The notes under the pieces: model-generated | Told to the model about the DNA's origin: nothing | The model's input: the letters and a program-made list of their open reading frames with translations, nothing else | Database searches by the model: none | Part shown: in pieces, positions 8,805 through 54,058 of the stretch | Numbering within the stretch: position 1 is the stretch's first letter | How the letters are laid out: each line of letters begins with the position of its first letter | DNA from: Candidatus Omnitrophota bacterium | GTDB taxonomy: Bacteria > Omnitrophota > Gorgyraeia > JABMRN01 > RBG-13-46-9 | Direction of reading: 5' to 3' | Assembly (NCBI GenBank): GCA_024542975.1 | Contig: JAMXCZ010000001.1 | Location: 24,141 to 88,140, forward strand | Length of the DNA: 64,000 bases | Translations under genes and position numbers: made by a program

Positions 8805-10001
8805 TTATTCGCTAATCTCCGTTACCACACCGGCTCCTACGGTGTGCCCGCCTTCGCGTATGGCGAAGCGCAGGCCTTTTTCCATTGCTATGGGCTCTAT
8901 GAGGACTATATCCATCGTTACGTTGTCGCCGGGCATCACCATTTCAACGTCTTTGGGCAGCGTAACGCTTCCGGTTACGTCGGTGGTTCTGAAGTAGAAC
9001 TGCGGCCTGTAGCCGTTAAAGAAGGGTGTGTGGCGGCCTCCCTCTTCTTTCGTAAGGATGTAGGCCTCTCCCTTGCATTTTGTGTGGGGGGTTATGGTGC
9101 CGGGTTTAGCGAGCACCTGGCCTCGCATGAGGTCCTTCTTCTCTACGCCTCTAAGGAGGACACCAATGTTATCGCCTGCCTGGCCGTGGTCGAGTATCTT
9201 TCGGAACATTTCAACGCCTGTTACTACGCTCTTCTTGGTGGGTTTAAGGCCTACGAGCTCTATCTCTTCGCCTGTTTTCACCTGGCCGCGTTCTACCCGG
9301 CCTGTGCCTACGGTGCCTCTTCCGGTTATGCTGAATACATCTTCTATCGGCATGAGGAAGGGCTTATCTATGTCTCTCTTGGGTGTGGGAATAAAGTCGT
9401 CTACGGCTTTCATCAGTTCAAATATGCATTTTACGGCCTCTGCGTCATCGGGAGAGCGCATGGCTTTGAGAGCGCTTCCTTTTACAACCGGCGTCTTATC
9501 TCCCGGGAACTTATATTTTGTCAGAAGCTCTCTTACTTCGAGTTCTACGAGGTCTAAGAGCTCTTTGTCATCTACGAGGTCTATCTTATTGAGGAAGACT
9601 ACGATTGCGGGAACGTTTACCTGGCGGGCTAAGAGTATGTGCTCCCTTGTCTGGGGCATGGGGCCGTCTGCGGCTGATACTACGAGTATGGCGCCGTCCA
9701 TCTGGGCTGCGCCGGTTATCATGTTTTTGATGTAGTCGGCGTGGCCGGGGCAGTCTATGTGGGCGTAATGCCGCTTTTCGGTCTCGTATTCAACGTGCGC
9801 TACTGCGATGGTAAGGATCTTGTTTTTGTCCCTTACCAATCCGCCTTTTGCGATTTCCGCATAGCTTTTGGCCTGAGCCTGGCCTTTTGTTGCAAGGACA
9901 GTGGTTATAGCGCTTGTGAGACAGGTCTTGCCGTGGTCAATATGTCCAATGGTGCCTACATTCACATGAGGTTTTGTGCGTTCAAACTTTTGCTTTGCCA
10001 T
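8805..10001 (-). CDS. tuf: Elongation factor Tu (copy 1, end of str operon)
   Basis: 398 aa with GHIDHGKT and DCPGHADY GTPase motifs. Full-length EF-Tu. Strong SD (aggagg) upstream. Confidence 0.98.
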
Positions 10002-13073: not shown

Positions 13074-16000
13074 TCATTTACTTTTTTTGCCTTTCTTCGC
13101 GGCCTTTTTGGTTTTTTTCTCTTTCTTTTTCACTACCTTTGGCGCGCTTTTTTTCTCCCCGGCGTTTTCTTCTTTTTTCTCTTCCTTTTTTACTTCACAA
13201 ATTTCTTTTATGAGCTCGATATCCTTATGAGCTTTGAATCCTGTCCCTGCGGGTATAAGGTGGCCCATTATTATATTCTCTTTGAGGCCCAAAAGATTAT
13301 CCACCTTACCGCTTGACGCCGCTTCCGTCAATATCCGGGTTGTTTCCTGAAAACTCGCAGCGGAAATGAAACTTTCGGTTGTAAGCGACGCTTTGGTTAT
13401 TCCTAAGAGTACGGGCGTTGCGCTTGCGGGCTTAGCCTTGCGCTTTATGGTCTTCGCGTTCTCTATTTTAAATTTGGGCTTATCCACCTGCTCGCCGATT
13501 ATGAATACCGTGTCTCCCGGATCTTCTATTTTTATCTTTCTGAGCATCTGGCGTATTATTACTTCTATGTGCTTATCATTGATCCTTACGCCCTGCAACC
13601 TGTAAACTTCCTGGACTTCATTCAAAAGATAATCCTGAAGCACTTTTTCGCCGGACACCTTCAATATGTCCTGAGGCACTACCGGGCCGTCTATAAGCTG
13701 CTGGCCGGCTATTACCTTGTCGCCCTTGTATACGTTCAGGTGCTTGCCGTGCGGTATGAGATACTCTTTTTTCATGCCTGTGGGGCTATTTATTATCACG
13801 CGCTTCTGCCCCTTTTTCGACTCGCCAAATTCAACAACTCCGTCAATCTCGCTTATGATGGCCGGGTCCTTCGGACGCCTTGCTTCAAATAGTTCAGCGA
13901 CACGCGGAAGGCCGCCTGTTATGTCTTTTGTTTTTGTGATTTTTCGCGGTGTTTTCGCCAGAACGTCGCCCGCAGACACGGCCTCCTTATCATTTACGGT
14001 GATAACCGCACCTGACGGAAGCGGATAGATTGCGAGCACCTCTTTTTTAGCGTTCAATATCACAATTTCGGGATGATACTCGCCTTTGTGTTCAACGATA
14101 ATGCGATTTTTTATCTTGGTGCTCGGATCCAATTCCTCCTTCATCGTGATGTCTTCCTTGATATCCTCATACCGAACCTTACCCTCTACCTCTGTCAGGA
14201 TCGGCACGGTATACGGGTCCCATCGCACAATTATCATTTTCTTGTCAATGTCAGATCTCCCGGCAGCGAACACCGTAGCCCCTTGCGGCACGGTATGCCG
14301 TTCCAATTCCCTGCTTGAACTGTCGTCAATACTGATCTGCCCGTTGCGGTTTAAGACAATGAACTGGCCCGCTTTTTTGCCGGCTACTGTTTTCAGGTTG
14401 TGATATTTCAGAATACCCTTATTCCTGCTTTCAATGTACGATTGTTCGATTACGCGGCTTGCAGTGCCTCCTATGTGAAACGTTCTCATCGTAAGCTGCG
14501 TGCCCGGCTCTCCGATCGATTGCGCCGCAATAACGCCAACCGCCTCACCCAACTCAACAGGCTTGCCTGTAGCAAGATTTCTGCCATAGCATTTGGCGCA
14601 TACGCCGCGCTTCGACTCGCACGTCAAAACGCTCCTTATACGCATCCTCTCAATGCCGGTTTCTTCTATTTTTTCCGCTTTTTCCTCGGTAATTTCCTGG
14701 CCATTTTCTACGATTACTTCGTCGCTTACGGGATTTACGGTATTGTCAAGCGCTATCCTCCCGATTATTCTCTCGGCAAGTGAGGCAACAACCTCGTCAC
14801 CTTCTATGATGGCGCTTACAAAAACTCCGTTGAGCGTTCCGCAATCCCCCTCGCTGATTATTACATCCTGCGCCACGTCAACCAACCTTCGCGTTAGATA
14901 TCCGGAATCGGCGGTTTTGAGCGCCGTATCCGCAAGCCCTTTTCGCGCGCCGTGCGTGGAGATAAAATAGTCCAAAACAGTGAGGCCCTCTCGGAAGTTA
15001 GCGATAATCGGTATTTCAATAATTTCACCCGACGGCTTCGCCATAAGCCCTCTCATTCCGGCAAGCTGCCGTATCTGCTGGGTGGAGCCCCTCGCGCCCG
15101 AATCCGCCATCATAAAAATTGGGTTAAAAGAGTCGAGCTCCGCAAAAATCAGGTCTGCGACCGCCTCGGTAGTGTGCGTCCAAAGGTCAATGATCTTGTT
15201 ATAGCGCTCGCCGTCGGTTATGATTCCCTTTTTATACTGATCGTCCACCTTCGCCACTTCGGCCTTCGTCTTTGTTATGTACTTTTCTTTTTCCTTGGGT
15301 ATATTTAAATCGTCGATTGAAATAGACAGACCGGCGAGCGTCGCCTCTTCAAAGCCGGCTTTTTTCAATCTATCTAAGAGTTCCACTGTTTCAGAATTAC
15401 CTTTTTTGTTATAACAATCGGTAATTACATCGCTTATCTTCGACTTATCCATTACCTCGTTTACAAATCCAAGCCCCTCGGGCAGAAGGTCGTTAAAAAT
15501 CACTCTTCCCACGGTAGTCTGGATGATCTCAGTTGCCATTCGCACTTTTATTTTCGCGTGAAGCGCAACCACTTCATTCTGATGCGCCGTAATCACCTCA
15601 TCTACATCCGCGAAAAGTTTACCTTCGCCTTTCATTCCGTCTTTTTCTTTCGTCAGATAGTAGCAGCCGAGAACGATGTCCTGCGACGGCACTACGATGG
15701 GGCGCCCGTTTGCCGGCGAGAATATGTTATTAGTCGAAAGCATTAAAAGCCTTGTTTCCATCTGCGCCTCCAGAGATAGCGGAACATGAACCGCCATCTG
15801 GTCACCGTCAAAATCAGCATTGAAAGCCGCGCATACAAGAGGGTGTATTCGTATCGCTTTCCCCTCGACAAGAATCGGCTGAAATGCCTGCACCCCGAGC
15901 CTGTGAAGTGTCGGAGCGCGATTTAGCATCACGGGATGGTCCCGTATAACCTCATCCAATATGTCCCATACCTCGAGTTTCGCATTTTCGACCATTTTTT

Positions 16001-17165
16001 TTGCGCTTTTTATCGTATGCACAAAACCTTTTTCCCGTAACTTACGTATGATGAAGGGTTCAAATAATTCAAGTGCAATTTTTTTCGGCAGGCCGCACTC
16101 ATGAAGTTTCAGTTCCGGGCCTATTACGATTACGCTCCTACCGGAATAGTCGACCCTTTTGCCCAGAAGATTCTGCCTGAACCTGCCCTGCTTGCCCTTC
16201 AGCATATCAGCGAGAGATTTAAGAGGGCGGTTGCCGGGGCCGAGGACTGGCCTCCCATGACGCCCGTTGTCAAACAGAGCATCGACCGCCTCCTGAAGCA
16301 TGCGTTTTTCGTTGCGTATAATTACTTCGGGCGCTTTAAGCGCAAGTAGTTTTTTAAGCCGATTATTTCTATTGATCACCCTTCTATAGAGGTCATTCAG
16401 GTCACTTGTCGCAAACCTTCCGCCATCGAGCGGCACAAGCGGCCTTAAATCGGGGGGTATGACGGGTACTACGTCCAATATTATCCACTCCGGGCTGTTA
16501 CCGGAGTTTCTAAAGTTTTCGATGACTTTCAAAACTTTTATATTTTTTTTCTGCGCATGAGAGGTCTTAGCCTCGTGTATTTCTTTTTTTAGCTTTTCTG
16601 CCAGTTTGTTAGGTTTGACCTCGAGAAGAAGCTTCTTTATGGCCGCCGCGCCCATTTCGGCCTTGAACTCCTTACCGTATTTCTCCCTGTATTCCACATA
16701 TCTTTCCTCGCTCAAGAGCTCCTTCTTCTTAAGCGGCGTATTGCCCGGATCAATTACGATATATTCCTCGTAATATAGCACCTTCTCGAGCGAACGCACG
16801 TTGAGTTGCAGCATATTTCCCATGCGCGAGGGCGTCGCCTTAAAAAACCATACATGTGATACCGGACACGCAAGTTCAATATGCCCCATTCTTTCTCTGC
16901 GGACACTGGAGCGTGTAATCTCGACTCCACAACGGTCGCACACGATTCCCTTATGTTTAATTCGTTTATATTTTCCGCAGTTACATTCGTAGTCACGGGT
17001 CGGGCCGAATATGCGCTCGCAAAAAAGCCCGTCTTTCTCCGGTTTTAAAGTCCTGTAGTTAATAGTCTCGGGCTTCTTGACTTCGCCCCTGGACCATGAT
17101 TTTATAGTCTCTGGAGAACTTAGTTTTATGCTTATCGCCTCAAACCGGTTGGTTGCCTCTAGCAC
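13074..17165 (-). CDS. rpoC: DNA-directed RNA polymerase subunit beta' (Lys-rich C-terminal tail)
   Basis: Contains …[14 protein letters not shown]… catalytic motif and zinc-binding CNCGKY…CDRCG. The ORF-finder start at 17210 is TTG and overlaps rpoB. A GTG at 17163-17165 gives [25 protein letters not shown]…, aligning with canonical rpoC N-termini, 1 nt after the rpoB stop. Confidence 0.95.
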
Positions 17166-20100
17166 TTTATTCCCCCTACTTTTGTTTTTTCCAACTTTAC
17201 GTCCAGGCAAAGACTCTGAAGTTCTTTGATAAGAACGTTGAAAGATTCCGGAGTTCCCGGTTGGAAGGCGGTTTCGCCTTTAACAATAGCTTCGTATATT
17301 TTGGTTCTTCCCATTACGTCATCGCTTTTTACCGTAAGCAGTTCCTGAAGTGTGTAGGCGGCGCCGTATGCTTCGAGGGCCCAAACTTCCATTTCACCAA
17401 AACGCTGCCCGCCAAATTGCGCTTTGCCCCCCAGAGGTTGCTGCGTAACCAGGGAATACGGCCCGATACTTCTCGCATGGATTTTGTCATCTACAAGATG
17501 TATGAGCTTCATTATATAGATGTAGCCCACTGTTACCTTCTGGTCAAAGGGCTTCCCGGTCAAGCCATCGTTTAACGTTACCTTGCCGTTCTCGGGAATA
17601 CCGGCAGCCTTCATTTCCTTTTTTATCTCATTTTCGCGCGTTCCGTCAAAAACAGGCGTGGTGACCTTGAACCCCAAAAGCTTCGCAGCCCAACCCCGAG
17701 GTGTCTCCAGTATCTGGCCAACGTTCATTCTGCTCGGAACGCCGAGGGGATTAAGCACGATTTCGACGGGTGTCCCATCGTCTAAGAAAGGCATATCCTC
17801 TTCCGGCAAAATTTTGGCAATAACACCTTTGTTGCCGTGCCTGCCCGCCATTTTATCGCCGACCGAAAGCCTCTTTTTGCTGGCAACGTAGACAACTACT
17901 TTCTTCAGGACTCCGGGTGGCAATTCATCTCCGCGCTTTACATGGTCGATTTCCCTTTCCTGCTCATAGGACAATTCCTCGATCTGTGCATTTAAAAGGC
18001 GCATAACCCTTGCGATTTCGTTTTCAAGCTGCGGATTTTCCACAAGCTTGATATTGTCGAGGTCTACTCTTTCAATCTTGCCGAGGTCGCGCGCCTTTAC
18101 ACAAGTGTTGTGCTTTATCAATATTTTTCCGCTCGCGTTGTCCAGGAGACTCGTTGCCAGTTTCTGGCCGACAAGGAGCTTATGCATCTTCCGCGCTTTT
18201 TCCTCTTCAATTTTTTTAATCTGGGCAGAGAACGTTGCTTCGATCTTTTTTATTTCCTTCTGCTCCTTCGCCCTTTCTTCCCTTGTTTTCGCGCGCGCTT
18301 CCTTCCTCGCAAATACCTTAACATCCACCACGATACCCTCTATGCCGGGCGGAACAGTCAAAGAAGCGTCGCGTACGTCACCGGCTTTTTCTCCGAATAT
18401 TGCGCGAAGCAGTTTCTCTTCGGGCGAAAGTTCCGTTTCGGATTTAGGCGTTACCTTGCCCGCCAATATGTCGCCCGGAGTAACTTCTGCGCCGATTCTT
18501 ACAATGCCGCCTGCGTCCAGGTTGCCAAGTGCCTCTTCTCCCACGTTTGGTATGTCCCTTGTGATCTCTTCATTGCCCAACCTCGTATCGCGGGCATCTA
18601 TCTCAAATTCTTCTATGTGGAGCGAAGTGTATATATCTTCTTTTAATACCTTTTCACTTATCAGGATCGCATCTTCGAAATTGTATCCACGCCATGGCAT
18701 GAAAGCCACAAGAACATTCCTGCCCAATGCAAGCTCGCCTTCCTTGGTGGCAGCGCCATCCGCAATTATGTCACCCGCCTTCACCTTATCCCGCACTTTA
18801 ACTATGGGCCTCTGGTTTATTGTGGTATTTGCGTTGGAGCGCTCAAATTTTCTTAAGGGGTATTTCTTTCCGCTGACTACAATTTCTTCGCTGTCAACAT
18901 AGCTTACGGTGCCGTTCGTATGCGCAATCACAACGGTTCCGGAATCTTTCGCTGCCCTATACTCCATACCTGTGCCGATCAAAGGGGCCTCGGCTTCGAG
19001 TAAGGGCACAGCCTGCCTCTGCATATTCGAGCCCATGAGCGCCCTGTTAGCATCGTCGTGCTCCAAAAACGGTATCAGGCTTGCGGCAATGCTTACCAGC
19101 TGGCAGGGTGATACGTCCATGTATTGAACCTTTTTAGGTTCCGCTGATATGAAGTCGCGTTTATACCGGCTGAACACCTTGTCATTCACAAATGCACCTT
19201 TTGTGTTTATCCGTTCATTGGCCTGCGCAATTATATATTCGTCTTCGGTGTCAGCCGAGAGGTATTCGATTTTATTGGTAACTTTGCCGTTTTCAACTCT
19301 TCGATACGGGGTCTCGAGAAAACCGAATTCGTTGACGCGCGCGTATGTAGAGAGTGAAGTTATAAGGCCTATGTTCGGGCCTTCAGGTGTCTCGATAGGG
19401 CACATTCTGCCGTAATGCGAATAGTGCACATCCCTTACCTCGAAACCCGCCCGCTCTCTATTTAGCCCCCCGGGGCCAAGGGCACTCAATCTTCTTTTGT
19501 GTGTAAGCTCCGCAAGGGGATTTGTCTGATCCATAAATTGCGAGAGCTGGCTTCTTCCGAAGAAATCCTTGACGATGCTCGATATCAGTTTGGCATTGAT
19601 AAGATTATGCGGCATAACGCTGTCGAGGTCGTATATGTTCATTCTTTCCCGTATTGACCGCTCAAGCCGCACCATACCTATGCGAAGCTGGTTAAGCAAA
19701 AGTTCGCCGGCGGACCTGATCCTACGATTTCCCAGATGATCAATGTCATCGGTCGGGCCGCCTTCGTTTTTTATTTTTATCAATTTTTTTACGACTGCCG
19801 TAAGTGTTTCGCAATCCAGAGTTGCGCGGTCAGGCGACGACGCCATTTGCAGCTTTCGGTTTAGCATATGCCTTCCTACGCGCCCGAGGCTGTAGCGCTT
19901 TGGGCTAAAAAACAACCTGTCGACCAATCCGAGCGCCGAATCAAGCGTCGGGGGATCGCCGGGGCGAAGTTTCCTGTATACATCAAGAAGCGCTTCTTCT
20001 CTGGTTCTCGTAGTATCACGCTCAATCGTTTTCACGATTTCGGGAAACTCTTCACTTAAGATCGATAAGTCCCTTATTTTTGCGTACCACAACCGTTTAG

Positions 20101-20866
20101 CAAGCTCCTTTGTAATATGCTCGCCGCTTTTCGCCAGTATGGAATTGGATGCGTCATCCATTATATCTTCCGCCAAAACAGAATTTATGTAATCTGTAAG
20201 CTGGCTTTCGCGCGTAATTTTTATTTTTTGAACGCCGCTGAATGCCTTTAGAATATCTTCATCTTTGGAAAGCCCGAATATTCTCAAAAATATCGACCCT
20301 ACGAATTTTCTGCGCCTATCAAGATAAACATGCAGGATGTCTGTAGGGTCAATTTCAAACTCGACCCACGCCCCACGGTAGGGTATTATGCGAGCAGAAA
20401 ATATTGTTTTGCCGCTCGGATGTTTGTTCTCCTCGAAAGATATCCCGGGCGAACGGTGCAGCTGACTGACAACCACGCGCTCGTCGCCGTTTACTATAAA
20501 CGTGCCTGTCGGCGTCATGAGGGGCAGGTCGCAAAAATATACTTCCTGCTCTTTCGTGTCTTTAGGCGTTTTCAGCCTGAGCTCGAGGCGAAGCGCTCCG
20601 GCGTATGACATGCCTGTTTTTATACATTCCTCTATAGTGTATTTCGGTTTTCCGATCGCGTAATTTATATACTCAAGCGTATATGCCTTATCCGGCGTTT
20701 CAATGGGAAACATCTCGCGAAAAAGGCCCTCTAATCCCACCGGTTGCCTTCGGGTCTTCGAAACGCCTACCTGCAAAAGCTTCGCATAACTCTCAATCTG
20801 TATCGCAATCAGATTTGGGAAATCGAAACATTTTGGTATTTTTGAGTAATCTTTGCGTTTGGTCAC
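17159..20866 (-). CDS. rpoB: DNA-directed RNA polymerase subunit beta
   Basis: 1235 aa with rifampicin-cluster region and …[15 protein letters not shown]… . SD (aggaga) upstream. Confidence 0.97.
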
Positions 20867-24198: not shown

Positions 24199-25401
24199 GT
24201 TATTCGCTAATCTCCGTTACCACACCGGCTCCTACGGTGTGCCCGCCTTCGCGTATGGCGAAGCGCAGGCCTTTTTCCATTGCTATGGGCTCTATGAGGA
24301 CTATATCCATCGTTACGTTGTCGCCGGGCATCACCATTTCAACGTCTTTGGGCAGCGTAACGCTTCCGGTTACGTCGGTGGTTCTGAAGTAGAACTGCGG
24401 CCTGTAGCCGTTAAAGAAGGGTGTGTGGCGGCCTCCCTCTTCTTTCGTAAGGATGTAGGCCTCTCCCTTGCATTTTGTGTGGGGGGTTATGGTGCCGGGT
24501 TTAGCGAGCACCTGGCCTCGCATGAGGTCCTTCTTCTCTACGCCTCTAAGGAGGACACCAATGTTATCGCCTGCCTGGCCGTGGTCGAGTATCTTTCGGA
24601 ACATTTCAACGCCTGTTACTACGCTCTTCTTGGTGGGTTTAAGGCCTACGAGCTCTATCTCTTCGCCTGTTTTCACCTGGCCGCGTTCTACCCGGCCTGT
24701 GCCTACGGTGCCTCTTCCGGTTATGCTGAATACATCTTCTATCGGCATGAGGAAGGGCTTATCTATGTCTCTCTTGGGTGTGGGAATAAAGTCGTCTACG
24801 GCTTTCATCAGTTCAAATATGCATTTTACGGCCTCTGCGTCATCGGGAGAGCGCATGGCTTTGAGAGCGCTTCCTTTTACAACCGGCGTCTTATCTCCCG
24901 GGAACTTATATTTTGTCAGAAGCTCTCTTACTTCGAGTTCTACGAGGTCTAAGAGCTCTTTGTCATCTACGAGGTCTATCTTATTGAGGAAGACTACGAT
25001 TGCGGGAACGTTTACCTGGCGGGCTAAGAGTATGTGCTCCCTTGTCTGGGGCATGGGGCCGTCTGCGGCTGATACTACGAGTATGGCGCCGTCCATCTGG
25101 GCTGCGCCGGTTATCATGTTTTTGATGTAGTCGGCGTGGCCGGGGCAGTCTATGTGGGCGTAATGCCGCTTTTCGGTCTCGTATTCAACGTGCGCTACTG
25201 CGATGGTAAGGATCTTGTTTTTGTCCCTTACCAATCCGCCTTTTGCGATTTCCGCATAGCTTTTGGCCTGAGCCTGGCCTTTTGTTGCAAGGACAGTGGT
25301 TATAGCGCTTGTGAGACAGGTCTTGCCGTGGTCAATATGTCCAATGGTGCCTACATTCACATGAGGTTTTGTGCGTTCAAACTTTTGCTTTGCCATTGTT
25401 T
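24199..25401. repeat. About 1.2-kb duplicate covering the tuf CDS plus SD region; the other copy is at 8804-10006
   Basis: The two tuf ORFs give identical 398-aa translations. Flanks checked by eye: identity starts at the stop codon and ends at the first mismatch just past the SD (g/a in ggccct/agccct). Confidence 0.9.
24200..25396 (-). CDS. tuf: Elongation factor Tu (copy 2, tufB-like)
   Basis: 398-aa translation identical to copy 1. Sits in the conserved tRNA-Thr / tuf / (rpmG) / tRNA-Trp / secE / nusG context. Confidence 0.98.
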
Positions 25402-26796: not shown

Positions 26797-26986
26797 GGTT
26801 CGCGCTAGTGGCGAACACTGCATCAATGTTAACTCTTACAAAAGTTAGCTATAATCGATTACCTTTTATGGGGCATCGGGTATACTTATTTTAGGTATAT
26901 AGCCGAGGTTTAAACCTTCTATCCGAGATGTTTTTTTGGCGATTAACTTAAAGTTTTGAAAAGTTTTGGAAGAGGGGGAAAATGAA

Positions 26987-29900
26987 ATGAAAACGAAAAG
27001 CATAGTCAGAATAGGTGCGATATTATGTTTCCTTGTTTTCGTAGCTGTGTTTTCTTCGGGAAATCCCGCATATGGGTTGTTGGATGAGAGTAGATCTAGA
27101 CAACGAAACCTGCTGGAAGCAGATCACCCCTACGCTCCCGGTGAGGTTTTGGTTAAGTTCAAAGAAGGGGTAGACCCGCAAGTAGCGCTCGAGAAGGGTA
27201 AAGTACGCGCCCAAAGCATTCAGCGCGCCTATTCTGTAAAGCCGGAGATAGCAAAATTTAAAAAAGACTACGCATTAGAAAGAGACCAAAACGGCTGGTA
27301 TTGGTTTAGGGGTAAAAACTACAAAGAAAGCGCCGATATCTCTGATGAGGAGTTCTTTCAGGAGGTTTACGCAGAGATGAGCCCTGAGAAAAAATCGCTC
27401 TATCGGACGTACAAAATAATCCTTCCCGAGAATATGAACGTTAAAGACGCAGTGATTAGATTACAACACGAGCCGTCTGTAGAATATGCCGAACCTAATT
27501 ATATTGCGAAAGCCTTTGCGGTGCCGAACGATCCTTATTACAACTCAAACGGAAGCTGGGGTCAGTCCTATGATGATTTGTGGGGGCTGAAGAAAATTCG
27601 GTGTCAAGCGGCTTGGAATGTCTCCCAGGGGGAAGGGGTGGTTGTCGCAGTGATAGATTCAGGGGTCGATTATAATCACGAAGATTTTTTCAAGGATGAA
27701 AACGGTAATGGCAGGTTAGACGAGGGTGAGCAATATAACATCTGGATAAATGAGGGCGAAATTCCGGGTAATGGTATCGATGATGACGCCAATGGCTATG
27801 TAGATGATATCTATGGTTATGACTTTGTTTATGGCGATCCAGATCCTTCCGATTTTTTTGGTCACGGTACCCATTGCGCCGGGACAATAGCCGCTGTTGG
27901 CAATAATAACTTGGGAGTTATTGGAGTTGCACCCAAGGCAAAGATTATGGTTCTTAAGGGGCTGAGCGACGACAGAGGATCCGGTAATAACGACACACTT
28001 GTAAATTGTATTAAGTATGCTGCGGATAATGGCGCGCATATTATCAGCAATTCCTGGGGAGGGCCAAGCGCACAAGCGTACAAAGATGTTTTTGCTTACG
28101 CCCAATCTCAAGGTTGTTTATCAATAGCTGCAGCGGGCAATAGCGGTGGGGATGAAATATTTTATCCTGCAGGCCTCTCAACTGTAATGGCTGTTTCCGC
28201 ATCCGATCACAATGACCAAATATGCCTTTTCTCTACTTACGGTGAGCACATAGAGGTTTCAGCTCCGGGTGGCGGCATACAAGATGAATTCGGCGGAGGC
28301 AGGGATGACCTATATAATATTTTATCCACCATGTCTGATAATTCAAAATTAGCTAAAAGTCACCCTAAACTTAAAATTTCCAATGGCTACTGGCGGATGG
28401 CAGGAACTTCCATGGCTTGTCCGCACGTAGCGGGCGTAGCCGCTTTGGCGCGTTCGATTTTTCCCGGTTTGACCAATGAAGAAATACGTCAGAAAATTCA
28501 AGCCGCTTCGAATGATATTGGCGAGGCGGGTAAAGATATTTATTTTGGCTACGGGCGAGTGGATGCATACGGCACTTTGCTAACTTTCGTTATTGATATA
28601 ACCTCTCCTCAACACCAAAGCTATATTCGCGGGAATGTAGATGTTTTTGGTAATGCCTTTGTTGGTGATGGCAAGTTTCAGAGCTATGAGCTTTACTGCG
28701 CTTCCAAAGATAATTCCGGCGAAGAGCCCCCTGTTTTGATTATCTCTTCCAATAATCCTGTCCAAGATGGATTTTTAACCCTGCCTGATAAGCCGTGGGA
28801 TACCACTCAATGCTCTGAAGGAAGCAATATTCTTACTCTAAAAGTTATTACTACAGACGGCGTTGAGTTGACAAGTTTTATCGGGGTAATTATCGACAAT
28901 GAGAATCAACCTCCCGAATTTATTAATCTTAGGGATAAACAGGTAGCCGTAGACGAAATTATTAGGTTTAAAGTAGAAGCGCAAGACCCGGATGACCCCA
29001 AACATCCTTTAGGATGGGGGGAATTAGTCTATTCCGCAGATAGCCTTCCTGAAGGTGCGGAGTTTAATCCGCAGACTCAAATCTTTTTCTGGCGTCCTGG
29101 CGAACTAGGCGTCTACGAAGTTAGTTTCAAGGTAAGCGACAGTGCTTATACCATAGCAAGAACCATAGCCATTACTACACATGTTATGCAGAAAATGCGG
29201 ATAACCACCGAACTTTCATACAAAGATTCCGCCCATATTTATATGGATAAGATTGTTTGGATGGACGATCGTAATAACGGCCAGCCTGATATTTATCTGT
29301 ACGATCTATCCACGGGTCGGGAGATTCAAGTGACCGATAGTAGTTATGCCGAGCTAGACCCTTTTGTTTACGAAGATAAAATTCTCTGGTGGGATGGCTC
29401 AAGCGAAATGTACGCTGAATACCCTTATATAAACTACGATATCTTCATGCGCACCTATGATTCTCTTACCGGCAAACTCGGCCCAATAATCCAGGTAACA
29501 ACCGACCCTCACGCACAATCCGTACCTAAAATGTACAAAGATAAAATTCTCTGGACTGATAACCGAAACGGCATGCTTGATGTTTACTTACGTACTTACG
29601 ATTCTTCTACGGGTGAGTTGGGCCCGGAAGTCGCAATAACTTCCGATCCCGACTACTATCAGTATCAGGCATCTATGTATGAAGATACGATTGTTTGGGC
29701 CGATGAACGAGTGGGCCAATTGTATTATTTTGGTATTTACATGCGTACTTATGATTCTTCCACAGGTGAGTTAGGGCCGGAAATTGGAGTATGTACGAAT
29801 CCTAGCATGCAGATAGGTCCTCTTATCAATAGAGATAGAATTGTCTGGCTGGACTGGCGAAATGGAGGCATTCAAAACCCCGATATTTATATGCGTGGGT

Positions 29901-30649
29901 ATGACTCTTCCACCGGGGAGCTTGGCCCAGAGATGCCGCTTGTTACCAACCCTTCAAAACAGGTGTGTGGAAGAATATATGAAAACAATGTCCTCTGGGT
30001 TGATGATCGCTTTGCTGATGGTCTACCATTTGCGGCATATGATTTCGACATCTATATGTATAATTTATCTACCGATCAAGAAATCCGGATAACTGATGAG
30101 ACAGGATATCAGTATGGTCCCTCTATGTATCATAACCGAATTGTCTGGTCTGGTTACGATTTAGAAGATAAAGGCTATGCTATTTATATGCTCTCAATAT
30201 TTTTATCCCCTCAAATTACCTCTCTTAGCCCGACTACGGTTTCAATTGGTTCCACTATTACCATAACAGGCAATAACTTTGGCTATACCGTGGAAAGAGC
30301 AGGCGTGAAATTTGCTAATGGAGTTCATGCGCTCATTGACTCATGGTCTAACGATGAGATTACCTGTAGGGTGCCGGAAGGGGCGCAATCAGGTTTGTTA
30401 AAAGTGATTACAAGAGGGGGAGAAAGCGAAGGGGTTCAGATAACAGTGGGGGTTCCTAGCGGTCTACCCGGTGATGTCAACGGTGACGGCAAAGTCGACA
30501 TACTCGACCTCAATATCGTAGCCCGGGCGTTCGGCTCGAGTAAAGGCGATCCCGGCTGGGATGCGAGGGCTGACCTTGATATAAGCGGCACAGTTGGCAT
30601 AGGCGACCTCATAATCGTGGCAAGGAATTTCGGGAAAGTGGCGGGTTGA
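26987..30649 (+). CDS. Secreted subtilisin-like serine protease (peptidase S8) with N-terminal fervidolysin-like prodomain, seven-blade TolB/PD40-like beta-propeller, IPT/TIG domain and C-terminal type-I dockerin
   Basis: Signal peptide MKTKSIVRIGAILCFLVFVAVFSSGNPAYG. Catalytic triad VVVAVIDSGVD / HGTHCAGTIAA / GTSMACPHVAGVAAL. Seven repeats of about 50 aa (…IVW.D.R.G..DIY.RTYDSSTGELGPE…). IPT-like PQITSLSPTTVSIGSTITITGNNFG… . Dockerin GDVNGDGKVDILDLNIVARAFG…DLDISGTVGIGDLIIVARNFG. Start taken as ATG 26987 (SD agaggggga 8 nt upstream); the ORF-finder TTG at 26966 was rejected. Confidence 0.9.
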   Translation: MKTKSIVRIGAILCFLVFVAVFSSGNPAYGLLDESRSRQRNLLEADHPYAPGEVLVKFKEGVDPQVALEKGKVRAQSIQRAYSVKPEIAKFKKDYALERDQNGWYWFRGKNYKESADISDEEFFQEVYAEMSPEKKSLYRTYKIILPENMNVKDAVIRLQHEPSVEYAEPNYIAKAFAVPNDPYYNSNGSWGQSYDDLWGLKKIRCQAAWNVSQGEGVVVAVIDSGVDYNHEDFFKDENGNGRLDEGEQYNIWINEGEIPGNGIDDDANGYVDDIYGYDFVYGDPDPSDFFGHGTHCAGTIAAVGNNNLGVIGVAPKAKIMVLKGLSDDRGSGNNDTLVNCIKYAADNGAHIISNSWGGPSAQAYKDVFAYAQSQGCLSIAAAGNSGGDEIFYPAGLSTVMAVSASDHNDQICLFSTYGEHIEVSAPGGGIQDEFGGGRDDLYNILSTMSDNSKLAKSHPKLKISNGYWRMAGTSMACPHVAGVAALARSIFPGLTNEEIRQKIQAASNDIGEAGKDIYFGYGRVDAYGTLLTFVIDITSPQHQSYIRGNVDVFGNAFVGDGKFQSYELYCASKDNSGEEPPVLIISSNNPVQDGFLTLPDKPWDTTQCSEGSNILTLKVITTDGVELTSFIGVIIDNENQPPEFINLRDKQVAVDEIIRFKVEAQDPDDPKHPLGWGELVYSADSLPEGAEFNPQTQIFFWRPGELGVYEVSFKVSDSAYTIARTIAITTHVMQKMRITTELSYKDSAHIYMDKIVWMDDRNNGQPDIYLYDLSTGREIQVTDSSYAELDPFVYEDKILWWDGSSEMYAEYPYINYDIFMRTYDSLTGKLGPIIQVTTDPHAQSVPKMYKDKILWTDNRNGMLDVYLRTYDSSTGELGPEVAITSDPDYYQYQASMYEDTIVWADERVGQLYYFGIYMRTYDSSTGELGPEIGVCTNPSMQIGPLINRDRIVWLDWRNGGIQNPDIYMRGYDSSTGELGPEMPLVTNPSKQVCGRIYENNVLWVDDRFADGLPFAAYDFDIYMYNLSTDQEIRITDETGYQYGPSMYHNRIVWSGYDLEDKGYAIYMLSIFLSPQITSLSPTTVSIGSTITITGNNFGYTVERAGVKFANGVHALIDSWSNDEITCRVPEGAQSGLLKVITRGGESEGVQITVGVPSGLPGDVNGDGKVDILDLNIVARAFGSSKGDPGWDARADLDISGTVGIGDLIIVARNFGKVAG
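29215..30190 (+). repeat. Intragenic tandem repeats (about 150-nt period, seven units) encoding the beta-propeller blades
   Basis: Nucleotide-level repeats visible, e.g. atgcgtacttatgattcttccacaggtgagttagggccggaa / ttacgtacttacgattcttctacgggtgagttgggcccggaa / atgcgtgggtatgactcttccaccggggagcttggcccagag. Confidence 0.55.
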
Positions 30650-52904: not shown

Positions 52905-53099
52905 ATTTATAAAACATCCGATTTTATTTCTCGATTAGTTTACTTAACCAGGTTGGTTTTTTTGTAATTTCGACCTAGCAGAATTTACAACAATGCCTTG
53001 TGCTCTGGCCACACCCTAACACATGCACACACGGCTGTCAAGCATTTTTCGCACCGCGACGCACCGAAATCCGCCTAAAACGGGCCTTGCATATCGCCC

Positions 53100-53444
53100 C
53101 TAAGTGAATATGAAAAATAGAATGATAAGCGTTATACCGGCGCAAGCGAGATAGAAATCATTGAAATAGAAAAAATCCCGGATCCTGTCCCGGTAAGATT
53201 CGGAATACTCGGCTTCGGGTAAAATCTTTATCTCTTCTCTTGGCGCGGATATAGGGGTGGTGCTCGCAATCCTGGCGCGAATCTCCTGCCGGATCGCCTC
53301 TACCTGTTCTCTCCGGAACCGTATAAATTTTCCACCGACCTTGTAAGCGGGAAGTTCACCGCTTGCAACGAGTTCCCGTATCTTTGTCCTGGGGATACCC
53401 AGGAGCGCAGCGACCTCTTTGACCGTTATGAGTTTTTCCGGCAT
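53100..53444 (-). CDS. Excisionase-family (HTH_17-like) DNA-binding protein with C-terminal transmembrane helix
   Basis: ITVKEVAALLGIPRTKIRELVASGELPAYKVGGKFIRFRREQVEAI HTH. C-terminal FYLACAGITLIILFFIF hydrophobic helix. Confidence 0.5.
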   Translation of the reverse strand: MPEKLITVKEVAALLGIPRTKIRELVASGELPAYKVGGKFIRFRREQVEAIRQEIRARIASTTPISAPREEIKILPEAEYSESYRDRIRDFFYFNDFYLACAGITLIILFFIFT

Positions 53445-53527
53445 GGTTTTATTACTTTTTTATCGAGATCCTTCACTCGCTTTCGCTCGTTCTGGATGAG
53501 CCCTCTAACATGAAAAACATCGAGGAC

Positions 53528-54058
53528 TCATTTTATTCGTTCGCTGTTAAGCCAGTCTTCGATCTTTGCCTTCTCAAACCGCCATTTATTTCCATCTTTT
53601 TCTGCGGGAAGCTTGCCTGCGCTCGCCCATTCCACAACCACGGCTTTGTCGACTTCCAGAAACTGAGCCACTTCTTCGATGGTTAATGCCTCCGAAGGGC
53701 TTCCCCCGGGCTTCTCCTCAAGCATGTTACAGTAGCCTTCCATGATAGCCCCCGCAGCAACAGTCAGGGCCGGCGTCCTAATAGTTCCCACTACGCACGC
53801 GGGAGCAATCAAACTGAGATCCTTCTGCGCCGAAATGTCACCCGTAACCTTACCCGCGACGATAATGGACTCCCCTATTATATCGGCATTTACGATGGCC
53901 TGAGCGCCGATAGTAAGAATGCCTTTCGTCTGGAGCTTCCCTTCAAACCTGCCGTTAATTCTTAAGTTTACGGCATCCTTGAATGTGAGCGTACCTTGCA
54001 TACTCGCGTCAACTTCTAAAACCTTCTCTTTCGGTTCTTCTTCTCGCCTTCTCCTCAT
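53528..54058 (-). CDS. Bactofilin-domain protein fused to a C-terminal excisionase-family HTH
   Basis: Bactofilin beta-helix repeats (…GTLTFKDAVNLRINGRFEGKLQTKGILTIGAQAIVNADIIGESIIVAGKVTGDISAQKDLSLIAPACVVGTIRTPALTVAAGAIMEGY…), then LTIEEVAQFLEVDKAVVVEWASAGKLPAEKDGNKWRFEKAKIEDWL. Confidence 0.6.
   Translation of the reverse strand: MRRRREEEPKEKVLEVDASMQGTLTFKDAVNLRINGRFEGKLQTKGILTIGAQAIVNADIIGESIIVAGKVTGDISAQKDLSLIAPACVVGTIRTPALTVAAGAIMEGYCNMLEEKPGGSPSEALTIEEVAQFLEVDKAVVVEWASAGKLPAEKDGNKWRFEKAKIEDWLNSERIK

What the first reader, a model, noticed from the sequence alone, without database searches (positions are those of the whole stretch)
53100..54058. Bactofilin fused to an excisionase-type HTH, paired with a paralogous HTH protein ending in a TM helix
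The bactofilin beta-helical polymer domain is normally a cytoskeletal scaffold. Here it carries a C-terminal HTH_17-like DNA-binding domain (LTIEEVAQFLEVDKAVVVEWASAGKLPAEKDGNKWRF). The neighbouring gene encodes the same HTH type (ITVKEVAALLGIPRTKIRELVASGELPAYKVGGKFIRF) anchored by one C-terminal TM. Together they could tether DNA to a bactofilin filament or to the membrane, as in chromosome or plasmid positioning or polar organisation, within an otherwise housekeeping stretch.
Basis: partly seen in the sequence, partly recalled or inferred. Interest (0 to 1): 0.55.

Follow-up and report, generated by a model that had tools for sequence, protein, structure and literature searches.

The report
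Bactofilin-HTH fusion plus anchored HTH partner
Omnitrophota bacteria carry a conserved, undescribed gene pair: a filament-forming bactofilin fused to a small DNA-binding-type domain, always followed by a related protein with a membrane anchor, which probably links membrane, filament and possibly DNA.

Summary
Window 53528-54058(-) encodes a 176-aa protein with a bactofilin beta-helix (Pfam 76.7 bits) and a C-terminal HTH_17 winged helix (51 bits). Window 53100-53444(-) encodes a 114-aa HTH_17 protein ending in a hydrophobic helix. This is not a one-off. More than 1000 homologues exist, with 522 confirmed stretches in species-representative genomes, and the 80 inspected are all Omnitrophota-type. 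The two genes are adjacent in 77 of 77 testable loci and in four more divergent lineages whose neighbours differ. The fusion is as conserved as tsaD and gatB.

The partner has a near-invariant aromatic motif (DFFYFNDFY) before its terminal helix, found only in this family. In core Omnitrophota the fused HTH is net acidic, and the arginine that reads DNA in BldC, its closest solved relative, is Glu/Asp in 75 of 81 sequences. DNA binding is therefore plausible but unproven. Divergent lineages keep more canonical basic residues.

My best reading (about 0.4) is a membrane-anchored bactofilin scaffold that tethers DNA through many weak contacts. The rivals are a purely protein-protein membrane anchor and a BacR-like sequestered regulator. 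I found no paper describing it. I rate it a new variant of a known kind, of moderate interest.

The parts
53528..54058 (-). Gene A: bactofilin-wHTH fusion protein, 176 aa (the stop codon is included in the coordinates)
   Evidence: ORF; Pfam Bactofilin plus HTH_17; 100% identical database entry P0001 from an Omnitrophica MAG, named 'polymer-forming cytoskeletal protein'
54023..54058 (-). N-terminal basic tail (residues 1-12, MRRRREEEPKEK). It is a degenerate version of the bactofilin membrane-targeting sequence and has no hydrophobic residue at position 2
   Evidence: Family N-termini: many relatives have MLGKGKK, MMGKKDKK or MIGKRDRK. The canonical MTS is MFSKQAKS, with F2 and K4/K7 essential (PMC12448750). 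pLDDT is below 50 for residues 1-10
53729..54022 (-). Bactofilin beta-helix core (residues 13-110)
   Evidence: Pfam 76.7 bits; phmmer hits to BacA 2n3d and TtBac 6ria; AF2 pLDDT 88-97; Foldseek TM-score normalised to the target 0.75-0.79. The residue aligned to TtBac F105, which lies at the polymerisation interface, is window M106, and across the family it is L46/F25/I6/M3/V1
53687..53728 (-). Variable, disordered linker (residues 111-124)
   Evidence: pLDDT below 50 for residues 116-122; linker length is 4-17 aa across the family
53540..53686 (-). C-terminal HTH_17 (BldC/excisionase-type) winged helix (residues 125-173). It is net acidic and has Glu143 at the position of BldC Arg30
   Evidence: Pfam and TIGR01764 hits; Foldseek to BldC 6ama (rmsd 1.5 A, 38% identity), Pukovnik Xis, RdfS, RacA and pSK1 Par; column statistics; BldC contact residues (PMC5859096)
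54066..54070 (-). GGAGG Shine-Dalgarno sequence for gene A. It lies inside the last codons of tsaD, 7 nt before the ATG, and the tsaD stop codon is 4 nt from that ATG
   Evidence: Read directly from the sequence. Across relatives the median gap from the upstream gene to gene A is 26 nt
53100..53444 (-). Gene B: tail-anchored wHTH partner, 114 aa (the stop codon is included in the coordinates)
   Evidence: ORF; HTH_17 at 55.6 bits; family alignment A2. It lies immediately downstream of gene A in 77 of 77 testable loci, with a median gap of 11 nt
53286..53432 (-). Partner HTH_17 winged helix (residues 5-53)
   Evidence: Pfam hit; the closest solved sequence is Pukovnik Xis 4j2n; AF2 places the wHTH at residues 8-44
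53181..53285 (-). Partner linker (residues 54-88): one helix followed by a disordered stretch of variable length
   Evidence: AF2 shows a helix at 45-60 and pLDDT of about 50 for residues 61-83; linker length is 7-50 aa across the family
53151..53177 (-). Near-invariant aromatic motif DFFYFNDFY (residues 90-98), directly before and overlapping the hydrophobic helix
   Evidence: In alignment A2 (23 sequences), D90, F91, Y93, F94, D96, F97 and Y98 are invariant. Motif variants are counted across the loci. A profile of the motif plus helix finds only this family, and the motif occurs once per locus
53103..53159 (-). C-terminal hydrophobic helix (residues 96-114), a putative tail anchor
   Evidence: Mean Kyte-Doolittle hydropathy 2.11 over 19 residues. 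In 75 of 77 relatives the best window exceeds 1.6, and by the median it ends at the last residue of the protein. AF2 predicts a helix at 96-113 with pLDDT above 90

Best explanation
The two genes encode a dedicated two-protein module that is a core feature of Omnitrophota. Gene A polymerises through its bactofilin beta-helix. Because bactofilin filaments are non-polar, subunits meet head-to-head and tail-to-tail, so the short linker should present the C-terminal winged-helix domains in two-fold related pairs at every second subunit interface along the filament (inference). Gene B is inserted in the cytoplasmic membrane by its C-terminal helix and holds a paralogous winged helix in the cytoplasm on a flexible linker. 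I propose that the filament lies at the membrane, held there by the N-terminal MTS-like tail where one is present and by the partner. I further propose that the arrayed winged helices of both proteins bind DNA weakly and with little sequence specificity, so that many weak contacts tether or organise the nucleoid at the membrane. This would be a nucleotide-independent chromosome-anchoring scaffold. Shown here: the domain identities, the fold, conservation of the polymerisation-interface residue, the terminal hydrophobic helix, obligate gene pairing, co-transcription signals and phylum-wide conservation. Inferred: polymerisation, membrane insertion, physical cooperation of the two proteins, and DNA binding.
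For: Domains and folds. The closest solved relatives of the HTH are all DNA-bound or DNA-binding wHTH proteins. Several of them oligomerise on DNA or tether it: BldC filaments on direct repeats, RdfS, RacA, pSK1 Par and Pukovnik Xis. Eight basic positions are conserved in the fused HTH: 132, 149, 154, 160, 163, 165, 174 and 176. The partner keeps K/R at the equivalents of BldC positions 29 and 30 in 59 and 47 of 77 sequences, and R42 and R44 of its wing are invariant or nearly so. Divergent lineages with the same two-gene architecture keep canonical recognition-helix residues. The fusion in L084 has 'DPKTLNQW' against BldC 'DPKTVTRW'. The fusion in L086 has 'SQKVKKW'. The partner in L084 has 'SHRNFKKMVRQKK'. 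This suggests that DNA binding is ancestral to the module. The pair is adjacent in 77 of 77 testable loci and in 4 further lineages while the flanking genes change. The median intergenic gap is 11 nt. The fusion is as conserved as its housekeeping neighbours: median 54% identity against 52-55% for tsaD, ctpA and gatB. Precedents exist for links between bactofilins and DNA-binding proteins encoded in the same operon: BacP-PadC-ParABS (PMC5703909) and BacR-BacE/F (PMC13649987). A membrane anchor supplied in trans can rescue an MTS-less BacA (PMC12448750).
Against: In core Omnitrophota, including this window, the fused HTH lacks most side chains that contact DNA in BldC. The Arg30 equivalent is E/D in 75 of 81 sequences, Lys26 is S/N/G/A, Thr27 is V/L/M, Lys33 is N/S/D and Arg47 is W/L. 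The domain's net charge averages -1.8, with a range of -4 to +1. Most partners begin the recognition helix with S-E-E-E, and their HTH net charge ranges from -7 to +5, which is unusual for a conserved DNA binder. No DNA target, repeat array or conserved non-coding site was found. No complex could be modelled. Nothing here shows polymerisation or membrane insertion directly.
Confidence: 0.4

Rival explanations
1. A protein-protein anchor with no DNA involved. In core Omnitrophota the fused winged helix has been repurposed as a docking module. It binds the partner, either HTH to HTH in a BldC-like head-to-tail contact or through the aromatic motif. The tail-anchored partner would then be the membrane anchor or nucleator of a conventional bactofilin scaffold that positions envelope or division enzymes.
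For: The DNA-facing ridge of the fused HTH is conserved but acidic or polar, and the domain has invariant Trp residues that are probably surface-exposed (W144, W159). That pattern suggests selection for a surface other than a DNA-binding one. The window protein and its close relatives lack the hydrophobic position 2 of the MTS, so they would need another anchor. PbpC-type anchoring in trans is known. The hydrophobic residues that form the BldC head-tail interface (F21, V23, W31) correspond to the invariant L134, V136 and W144. The aromatic motif plus helix is exclusive to this partner family. PDZ, SPOR and CtpA-type envelope genes recur nearby.
Against: The charges of the two proteins show no complementary covariation; the only correlation is positive, rho 0.37. 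Divergent members keep canonical basic recognition helices. Many family members still have an MTS-like N-terminus and so would not need an anchor. Every structural neighbour of this wHTH type in the fold search is a DNA binder.
Confidence: 0.27
2. A polymer- or membrane-sequestered transcription regulator, similar to BacR. One or both HTH domains are sequence-specific regulators of the BldC type. Their access to DNA would be controlled by bactofilin assembly and by membrane tethering, coupling gene expression to envelope or cell-cycle state.
For: The closest solved HTH is BldC, a global developmental regulator that acts as a DNA-bound multimer. B. subtilis BacR is an HTH protein encoded with bactofilins. 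It binds them, is held at the membrane, and moves to the nucleoid on cell-wall stress. A bactofilin-PilZ fusion in the same subtype (P0224) suggests that signalling domains can be attached to this scaffold.
Against: There is no room for a dedicated promoter or operator. Gene A starts 4 nt after tsaD, the median upstream gap is 26 nt, and the gap between the genes is variable with a median of 11 nt. The promoter scan found nothing above the shuffled controls. The base-reading residues are not conserved in the fusion. A covalent fusion cannot be released from the polymer the way BacR is. The very high, housekeeping-like conservation fits a structural role better.
Confidence: 0.2
3. A remnant of a mobile element or a defence system: excisionase or MADS1-type HTH genes that happen to sit next to a bactofilin.
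For: JGI names several members 'excisionase family DNA binding protein'. There are sub-threshold matches to MAD1 (NCBIfam 46.8 and 39.6 bits against a cut-off of 80; PADLOC mad1).
Against: No integrase, methylase or other defence gene is nearby. The position is fixed in core housekeeping synteny across the phylum, and conservation equals that of tsaD and gatB. The matches cover only the generic HTH and are below the curated cut-offs.
Confidence: 0.02

Closest known systems
Canonical bactofilins (C. crescentus BacA, T. thermophilus TtBac)
   Same: The same beta-helical core by sequence (Pfam 76.7 bits; phmmer to 2n3d and 6ria) and by predicted fold. The polymerisation-interface position is hydrophobic. 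Many family members have a short basic N-terminal tail resembling the MTS.
   Different: This family carries a folded C-terminal wHTH domain in place of a short disordered tail. The MTS hallmark, a hydrophobic residue at position 2, is lost in the window protein. There is an obligate downstream partner gene.
M. xanthus BacNOP-PadC-ParABS (PMC5703909)
   Same: A bactofilin scaffold is linked to DNA and chromosome organisation through a protein encoded immediately downstream, and the C-terminal extension of the bactofilin is the docking site.
   Different: In Myxococcus the link is indirect: BacP's disordered tail binds PadC (a ParB-like domain protein), which binds ParA and DNA. Here a wHTH is fused to the bactofilin itself, and the downstream protein is a tail-anchored wHTH, not a ParB-like adaptor. 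No parAB genes were seen in the inspected loci.
B. subtilis BacR (YhbD, DUF4004)-BacE/BacF (PMC13649987)
   Same: An HTH protein is genetically coupled to bactofilins, binds them, and is found at the membrane; DNA binding and bactofilin binding are coupled.
   Different: BacR is a separate, soluble protein of about 210 aa with a DUF4004 C-terminal domain, restricted to Firmicutes, and it can be released to the nucleoid. Neither protein here matched DUF4004. Here the HTH is covalently fixed to the polymer and the second HTH is membrane-anchored.
Streptomyces BldC (PDB 6ama, 6amk)
   Same: It is the best structural and sequence match for the fused HTH (rmsd 1.5 A, 38% identity). It is a minimal wHTH without a dimerisation domain that works only as a multimer arrayed on DNA.
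   Different: BldC is basic and uses Lys26 and Arg30 to read bases and Arg47 and Arg48 in the wing. The Omnitrophota domain has S/N/G/A, E/D, W and R/K at those four positions. Its multimerisation would come from the fused bactofilin rather than from DNA-templated head-tail contacts.
B. subtilis RacA and S. aureus pSK1 Par (wHTH fused to an oligomerising domain, tethering or partitioning DNA)
   Same: The same MerR/BldC-type wHTH fold appears among the Foldseek hits (5i44, 8csh). The design logic, a DNA-binding wHTH plus a self-associating domain plus a membrane or pole anchor, is the one proposed here (the functions of RacA and Par are from my own knowledge).
   Different: Their self-associating part is a coiled coil, not a bactofilin. 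RacA is anchored via DivIVA rather than a dedicated tail-anchored paralogue. There is no sequence-level relationship beyond the fold.
Bactofilins with their own transmembrane segment (for example P. mirabilis CcmA; discussed in PMC12448750)
   Same: Stable membrane insertion is used instead of, or in addition to, the peripheral MTS.
   Different: There the TM segment is N-terminal and part of the bactofilin polypeptide. Here the hydrophobic helix is on a separate, co-transcribed partner protein.

Membership tests
Bactofilin (PF04519, DUF583) | Sequence match to the bactofilin profile above the curated threshold | tested here: met
   76.7 bits against a gathering score of 27.9, covering profile positions 2-97 of 98; phmmer E 8.6e-6 to BacA and 2.9e-5 to TtBac
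Bactofilin (PF04519, DUF583) | Right-handed beta-helical core fold | tested here: met
   AF2 pLDDT 88-97 over residues 13-112, all beta strands; Foldseek top hits 2n3d and 6rib, TM-score normalised to the target 0.75-0.79
Bactofilin (PF04519, DUF583) | Hydrophobic residue at the C-terminal polymerisation interface (TtBac F105; the corresponding BacA mutant is F130R) | tested here: met
   The aligned position is M106 in the window protein and L46/F25/I6/M3/V1 across 81 family members. The F130R and F105R mutants are described and in the title of PDB entry 6ria
Bactofilin (PF04519, DUF583) | N-terminal membrane-targeting sequence (M-F-S-K-x-x-K type, with F2 and K4/K7 essential) | tested here: inconclusive
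   About half of the family has M-[LMIF]-[GST]-[KR]-x-x-K-like N-termini. The window protein starts MRRRREE and has no hydrophobic position 2
Bactofilin (PF04519, DUF583) | Nucleotide-independent polymerisation into filaments | not testable with these tools
   This needs purified protein examined by EM or sedimentation, or imaging in cells
HTH_17 / excisionase-type winged helix (PF12728, TIGR01764); BldC family | Profile match above threshold for both proteins | tested here: met
   PF12728 scores 51.1 and 55.6 bits against 27; TIGR01764 scores 44.8 and 57 bits against 28.8. NF033787 HTH_BldC scores only 27.5 and 13 bits against 77, so neither is a BldC-subfamily member by NCBIfam
HTH_17 / excisionase-type winged helix (PF12728, TIGR01764); BldC family | wHTH fold (two helices, a beta-hairpin wing, then a third helix) | tested here: met
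   AF2 for the fusion gives H127-134, H138-147, E153-155, E158-162 and H163-175. AF2 for the partner gives H8-15, H19-28, E34-36, E40-44 and a helix from 45. Foldseek to BldC gives rmsd 1.5 A
HTH_17 / excisionase-type winged helix (PF12728, TIGR01764); BldC family | Conservation of the DNA-contacting residues defined in the BldC-DNA structures (K26, T27, T29, R30, W31, K33, H46, R47, R48) | tested here: not met
   In the fusion only the W31 and R48 equivalents are kept, and the R30 equivalent is E/D in 75 of 81 sequences. In the partner the positions 29 and 30 are K/R in 59 and 47 of 77 sequences, but positions 25-27 are mostly E-E-E. Divergent lineages are closer to canonical
HTH_17 / excisionase-type winged helix (PF12728, TIGR01764); BldC family | DNA binding | not testable with these tools
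   This needs EMSA or DAP-seq, or nucleoid co-localisation in a heterologous host
Excisionase / recombination directionality factor of a mobile element | Association with an integrase or recombinase and a variable, element-borne location | tested here: not met
   The position is fixed between tsaD (or mgtC) and polA, larB-like or PDZ genes in 82 loci, and no recombinase is present in the flanks
MADS defence system protein MAD1 | Score above the equivalog cut-off, and the presence of the other MADS genes | tested here: not met
   NF047737 scores 46.8 and 39.6 bits against a cut-off of 80. PADLOC matches cover the HTH only. The neighbours are housekeeping genes
BacR/YhbD (DUF4004, PF13171) bactofilin regulators | DUF4004 domain | tested here: not met
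   No PF13171 hit appears at E up to 1 for either protein; the resemblance is functional and genetic only
Tail-anchored membrane protein | A single hydrophobic helix at the extreme C-terminus, with the rest of the protein cytoplasmic | tested here: met
   The best 19-residue hydropathy window is at least 1.6 in 75 of 77 sequences and, by the median, ends at the last residue. AF2 predicts a helix with pLDDT above 90. Actual insertion and topology are untested

The most novel reading that the evidence does not exclude
Omnitrophota use a bactofilin filament that binds DNA directly. Pairs of built-in winged-helix domains are displayed along a non-polar, nucleotide-independent polymer. Together with a dedicated tail-anchored paralogue, the filament fastens the nucleoid to the membrane. 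This would be the first cytoskeletal polymer with an intrinsic DNA-binding domain: a minimal, phylum-wide chromosome-anchoring or segregation device in very small cells, distinct from ParABS-based and PadC- or RacA-type adaptor systems.
Probability: 0.3. Interest if true: 0.75.

Novelty: new variant of a known kind. Interest (0 to 1): 0.55.

Why it matters
Bactofilins are known as membrane-associated scaffolds that recruit clients through short peptides or adaptor proteins. No bactofilin with a built-in nucleic-acid-binding fold has been studied, and I found no paper on bactofilins in Omnitrophota. This module is as conserved as tRNA-modification and translation genes across an entire, largely uncultured phylum of very small cells, so it is likely to be central to their cell biology.

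If the winged helices bind DNA, the pair would be a very simple, energy-independent way to couple chromosome, cytoskeleton and membrane. If they do not, it would be a clear case of an excisionase/BldC-type HTH evolving into a protein-docking module, and of a bactofilin that relies on a separate tail-anchored partner.

Either outcome is directly testable with two small proteins of 176 and 114 aa in a heterologous host. The invariant DFFYFNDFY membrane-proximal motif is itself an undescribed feature.

Tried and rejected
1. Charge covariation between the partner HTH or linker and regions of the fusion, as a sign of an electrostatic interface: no complementary signal across 76 pairs. The only nominal correlation was positive, and it is confounded by phylogeny.

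2. A profile of the aromatic motif plus terminal helix searched against 5.8 billion proteins, to find the anchor on other domains: it returned only N-terminally truncated gene calls of the same partner family. The first attempt failed because the query was too short.

3. Promoter and terminator scans around the pair: nothing above the shuffled controls. The terminator-like hairpin at 53193-53178 lies inside the partner's coding sequence, where the T-run encodes the Phe-rich motif.

4. Defence-system and mobile-element readings: rejected on sub-threshold, HTH-only matches and on fixed housekeeping synteny.

5. MamR (magnetosome) similarity: E of only 0.001-0.004, far below the cut-off of 100 bits. 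It reflects generic HTH similarity.

6. Representatives that seemed to lack the HTH: several have nonsense-like C-termini and look like frameshifted or truncated calls (P0193, P0195, P0198, P0202). A few are genuine bactofilin-only or differently fused proteins.

7. Literature searches for bactofilin with Omnitrophota, and for bactofilin with excisionase, HTH_17 or MerR: no description of this architecture.

Full report
**1. What is there**

The finding's coordinates exactly span two same-strand ORFs.
- Gene A is 53528-54058(-), 176 aa.
- Gene B is 53100-53444(-), 114 aa.

Gene A scores 76.7 bits on Pfam Bactofilin (residues 13-110, cut-off 27.9). It scores 51.1 bits on HTH_17 (residues 125-173, cut-off 27). 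Gene B scores 55.6 bits on HTH_17 (residues 5-53). The NCBIfam 'excise' domain model is above its cut-off for both.

AlphaFold2 on a 23-sequence alignment gives gene A a mean pLDDT of 82. The model has a beta-helix at 13-112 (pLDDT 88-97), a disordered linker at 116-122 and a winged helix at 125-175. Foldseek against PDB puts BacA (2n3d) and the T. thermophilus bactofilin (6rib, 6ria) first. BldC follows (6ama, rmsd 1.5 A over 48 residues, 38% identity). Pukovnik Xis, RdfS, RacA and pSK1 Par also appear. Sequence searches of PDB agree.

The gene B model (pLDDT 72) has these parts:
- a wHTH at residues 8-44
- a helix to residue 60
- a disordered stretch at 61-83
- a helix at 84-94, with a break at N95
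- a very confident terminal helix at 96-113

The last 19 residues have a mean Kyte-Doolittle hydropathy of 2.1. The two HTH domains are 35% identical (pairwise E 1e-10).

**2. It is a conserved family, not a curiosity**

Gene A has 1074 database homologues at E below 1e-3. The best 120 are all 158-197 aa (nearly all 175-182 aa) and carry both Pfam domains. Every named one is an Omnitrophota (Omnitrophica) MAG.

A scan of one genome per GTDB species found 522 confirmed stretches. The 80 best are all Omnitrophota MAGs, or MAGs labelled 'uncultured Planctomycetia' or 'uncultured bacterium' that share the same synteny.

An exhaustive HMMER pass over 1.84 billion representatives shows only about 20-25 clusters at 50% identity that cover both domains. 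Below them the list merges into ordinary bactofilins.

Gene B lies immediately downstream of gene A in all 77 loci whose contig extends far enough. The median gap is 11 nt, and some pairs overlap.

Gene A's ATG is 4 nt after the tsaD stop codon, and its GGAGG lies within the last tsaD codons. Across relatives the median upstream gap is 26 nt. The pair is therefore co-transcribed with its neighbours and has no room for a regulatory region of its own.

Gene A is as conserved as the housekeeping genes around it. Its median identity to the window protein is 54%, against 52-55% for tsaD, ctpA and gatB. Gene B evolves faster, at a median of 40%.

**3. The pair is the unit**

The flanking genes change while the pair stays together.
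- Most lineages have an MgtC-family membrane protein between tsaD and gene A (54 loci). Downstream they have an AIRC (LarB-like) gene in 45 of 74 loci, or a secreted TPR/PDZ protein in 16 of 74.
- The window's lineage has tsaD, then the pair, then polA.

Four more divergent lineages (37-43% identity to gene A) have unrelated neighbours. These include dnaE with a hybrid kinase, SPOR with TPR/PDZ, and SIS with CTP-transferase. Gene A is still followed, within -11 to +126 nt, by a 97-105 aa HTH_17 protein with a C-terminal hydrophobic helix.

One still more distant fusion (28% identity, L083) has no such partner. It sits beside a Volactin-family actin homologue (Pfam E 2e-91) and a ParA/MinD-type ATPase.

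**4. New anatomical features**

(a) Gene B carries a near-invariant aromatic motif, DFFYFNDFY, at residues 90-98. In the 23-sequence alignment D90, F91, Y93, F94, D96, F97 and Y98 are invariant. The motif sits immediately before and overlaps the hydrophobic helix, and 16-19 residues follow it to the C-terminus. A profile of only this motif plus helix, searched against 5.8 billion proteins, retrieved only truncated gene calls of the same family. The anchor is therefore specific to this module. 62 of 77 partners end with K/R among the last four residues, so the topology is not settled.

(b) The N-terminus of gene A in many relatives resembles the bactofilin membrane-targeting sequence: MLGKGKK, MMGKKDKK or MIGKRDRK, against BacA MFSKQAKS. 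The window protein (MRRRREE) and its close relatives lack the hydrophobic position 2, which is essential in BacA.

(c) The position aligned to the polymerisation-interface residue TtBac F105 is hydrophobic throughout the family (L/F/I/M/V).

**5. Does the fused HTH bind DNA?**

The BldC-DNA structures define the contacts (PMC5859096).
- Lys26 and Arg30 read bases.
- Thr27, Thr29, Lys33 and Trp31 touch phosphates.
- His46, Arg47 and Arg48 of the wing sit in the minor groove.

The alignment is anchored by the shared motif W-A-x-A-G-K-L. The gene A equivalents across 81 sequences are:

| BldC residue | Gene A position | Residues in the family |
|---|---|---|
| K26 | 139 | S/N/G/A |
| T27 | 140 | V/L/M |
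| T29 | 142 | variable |
| R30 | 143 | E/D in 75 of 81 |
| W31 | 144 | W, invariant |
| K33 | 146 | N/S/D |
| H46 | 158 | variable |
| R47 | 159 | W in 68, L in 11 |
| R48 | 160 | R/K/H |

The domain is net acidic (mean -1.8), although eight basic positions are conserved, mostly in the wing and the last helix. Because the acidic residue is itself conserved, this is a selected surface and not decay.

The partner keeps K/R at the equivalents of positions 29 and 30 in 59 and 47 of 77 sequences, and it has an invariant wing arginine (R42). Most partners, however, start the recognition helix with S-E-E-E, and the net charge of the HTH ranges from -7 to +5. The window's partner is the basic variant (P-R-T-K-I-R-E, net +4).

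In the divergent lineages both proteins look more canonical:
- gene A in L084 has 'DPKTLNQW', against BldC 'DPKTVTRW'
- gene A in L086 has 'SQKVKKW'
- the partner in L084 has 'SHRNFKKMVRQKK'

My reading is that DNA binding is probably ancestral to the module. In core Omnitrophota it is either weak and non-specific, relying on many contacts at once, or partly replaced by protein-protein contacts.

**6. Mechanism**

Bactofilins form non-polar filaments without nucleotides and usually lie on the membrane (abstract of PMC12448750; 6rib). In a head-to-head, tail-to-tail polymer the C-termini of neighbouring subunits meet. With a linker of only about 13 residues, the winged helices would be presented as two-fold related pairs at regular intervals. 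This step is inference; the geometry comes from my knowledge of the TtBac filament.

The partner would place a second, paralogous winged helix at the membrane on a flexible tether of 7-50 residues.

The explanation I favour (about 0.4) is a membrane-filament-nucleoid tether built from many weak wHTH-DNA contacts. Known relatives of this logic are:
- BacP-PadC-ParABS, in which the adaptor encoded next to the bactofilins binds DNA non-specifically and compacts nucleoids in E. coli
- BacR-BacE/F
- RacA and pSK1 Par, which use the same wHTH fold (their functions are from my own knowledge)

The rival explanations are:
- A pure protein-protein anchor (0.27). Here the acidic, Trp-bearing surface of the fused HTH docks onto the partner. 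This would supply in trans the membrane anchor that MTS-poor members such as the window protein lack. Anchoring in trans works for BacA.
- A sequestered regulator of the BacR or BldC type (0.2). This is disfavoured because there is no operator space and because a covalent fusion cannot be released.
- A mobile-element or defence remnant (0.02). This is rejected on synteny and on sub-threshold, HTH-only matches.

**7. Novelty and limits**

Public annotation calls the proteins 'polymer-forming cytoskeletal protein', 'helix-turn-helix domain-containing protein' or 'excisionase family DNA binding protein'. Full-text searches found no paper on bactofilins in Omnitrophota or on a bactofilin-HTH_17 fusion. 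The library is limited to open-access papers and bioRxiv.

Both domains are well known. What is new is the fusion, the obligate tail-anchored paralogue with its private aromatic motif, and the phylum-wide, housekeeping-like conservation. I therefore rate it a new variant of a known kind.

The limits of this work are:
- Only the 80 best of the 522 genome hits were inspected.
- Taxon labels are those of the records.
- No complex prediction, TM predictor or electrostatic surface calculation was available.
- Polymerisation, membrane insertion, the interaction between the two proteins and DNA binding are all untested.

Noticed in passing
window 8805-10001 (-) and 24200-25396 (-): Two EF-Tu (tuf) genes whose products are 100% identical over 398 aa lie about 15.4 kb apart, on either side of the large ORFs at 13074-20866. 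Their overlapping reverse-frame ORFs have nearly the same lengths (256/257 aa and 220 aa), which suggests the DNA is near-identical too. This is the classic tufA/tufB-type duplication, or possibly an assembly repeat.
   Followed up: partly
window 26966-30649 (+): A 1227-aa S8 subtilase with a fervidolysin-like prodomain, a TIG/IPT domain and a C-terminal type I dockerin. It is the only large plus-strand gene in a stretch that is almost entirely on the minus strand. A dockerin in an Omnitrophota genome hints at a cell-surface or cohesin-based assembly.
   Followed up: partly
L083 290-5567 (JGI metagenome 3300009777, contig Ga0105164_10002154): A distant bactofilin-HTH_17 fusion (28% identity to the window protein, N-terminus MKFFPQKKRN) has no HTH partner downstream. 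It sits in a same-strand cluster with a Volactin-family actin homologue (Pfam E 2e-91), a ParA/MinD-type ATPase carrying a C-terminal AMPK1_CBM/CBM48 domain, and three proteins without Pfam matches. It looks like a cytoskeletal or positioning gene cluster of unknown taxonomic origin.
   Followed up: partly
proteins P0224 and P0219 (from the representative search): The same bactofilin subtype (I/LDV.A.MQG...NLRI.G.FEG.L) also occurs fused to a C-terminal PilZ domain (P0224: Bactofilin 86 bits plus PilZ 39.6 bits) and to a C-terminal hydrophobic segment (P0219). This scaffold therefore appears to be a platform for different small C-terminal binding modules.
   Followed up: partly
L004, L009, L014, L017, L021, L024, L031, L033, L041, L046, L048, L055, L058, L059 (record titles): MAGs deposited as 'uncultured Planctomycetia bacterium' (binchicken co-assemblies) carry the Omnitrophota-type gatB-ctpA-tsaD-bactofilin-HTH-partner synteny, at 49-69% identity to the window protein. 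The NCBI labels are probably placeholders or misassignments.
   Followed up: no
L018 and L044 (MAG JAPLMG01); L073 and L076 (MAG JAGONY01): Two contigs of the same MAG each carry a copy of the pair (154 of 176 and 170 of 177 identical residues between copies). This could be strain heterogeneity in the bin or a true duplication.
   Followed up: no
window 53178-53193 (-): A terminator-like hairpin followed by a T-run lies inside the partner's coding sequence. The T-run is the Phe codons of the DFFYF motif, so it is probably a by-product of coding. Any effect on transcription was not tested.
   Followed up: no
L015 4285-4956 and homologous positions in 54 loci; L015 5949-6689 and homologous positions in 45 loci: Most Omnitrophota have an MgtC-family membrane protein (some with an ACT-like C-terminal domain) between tsaD and the bactofilin gene, and an AIRC (LarB-like) gene right after the partner. 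Both are absent at this position in the window's lineage, where polA follows after a 195-bp spacer (52905-53099).
   Followed up: partly
L001 6916-7884; L086 2289-3946: A secreted TPR/PDZ protein recurs next to the pair: downstream in 16 of 74 loci, and upstream in a divergent lineage where it is preceded by a SPOR-domain protein. Together with ctpA upstream, this gives the neighbourhood an envelope or division flavour that might be functionally relevant.
   Followed up: no
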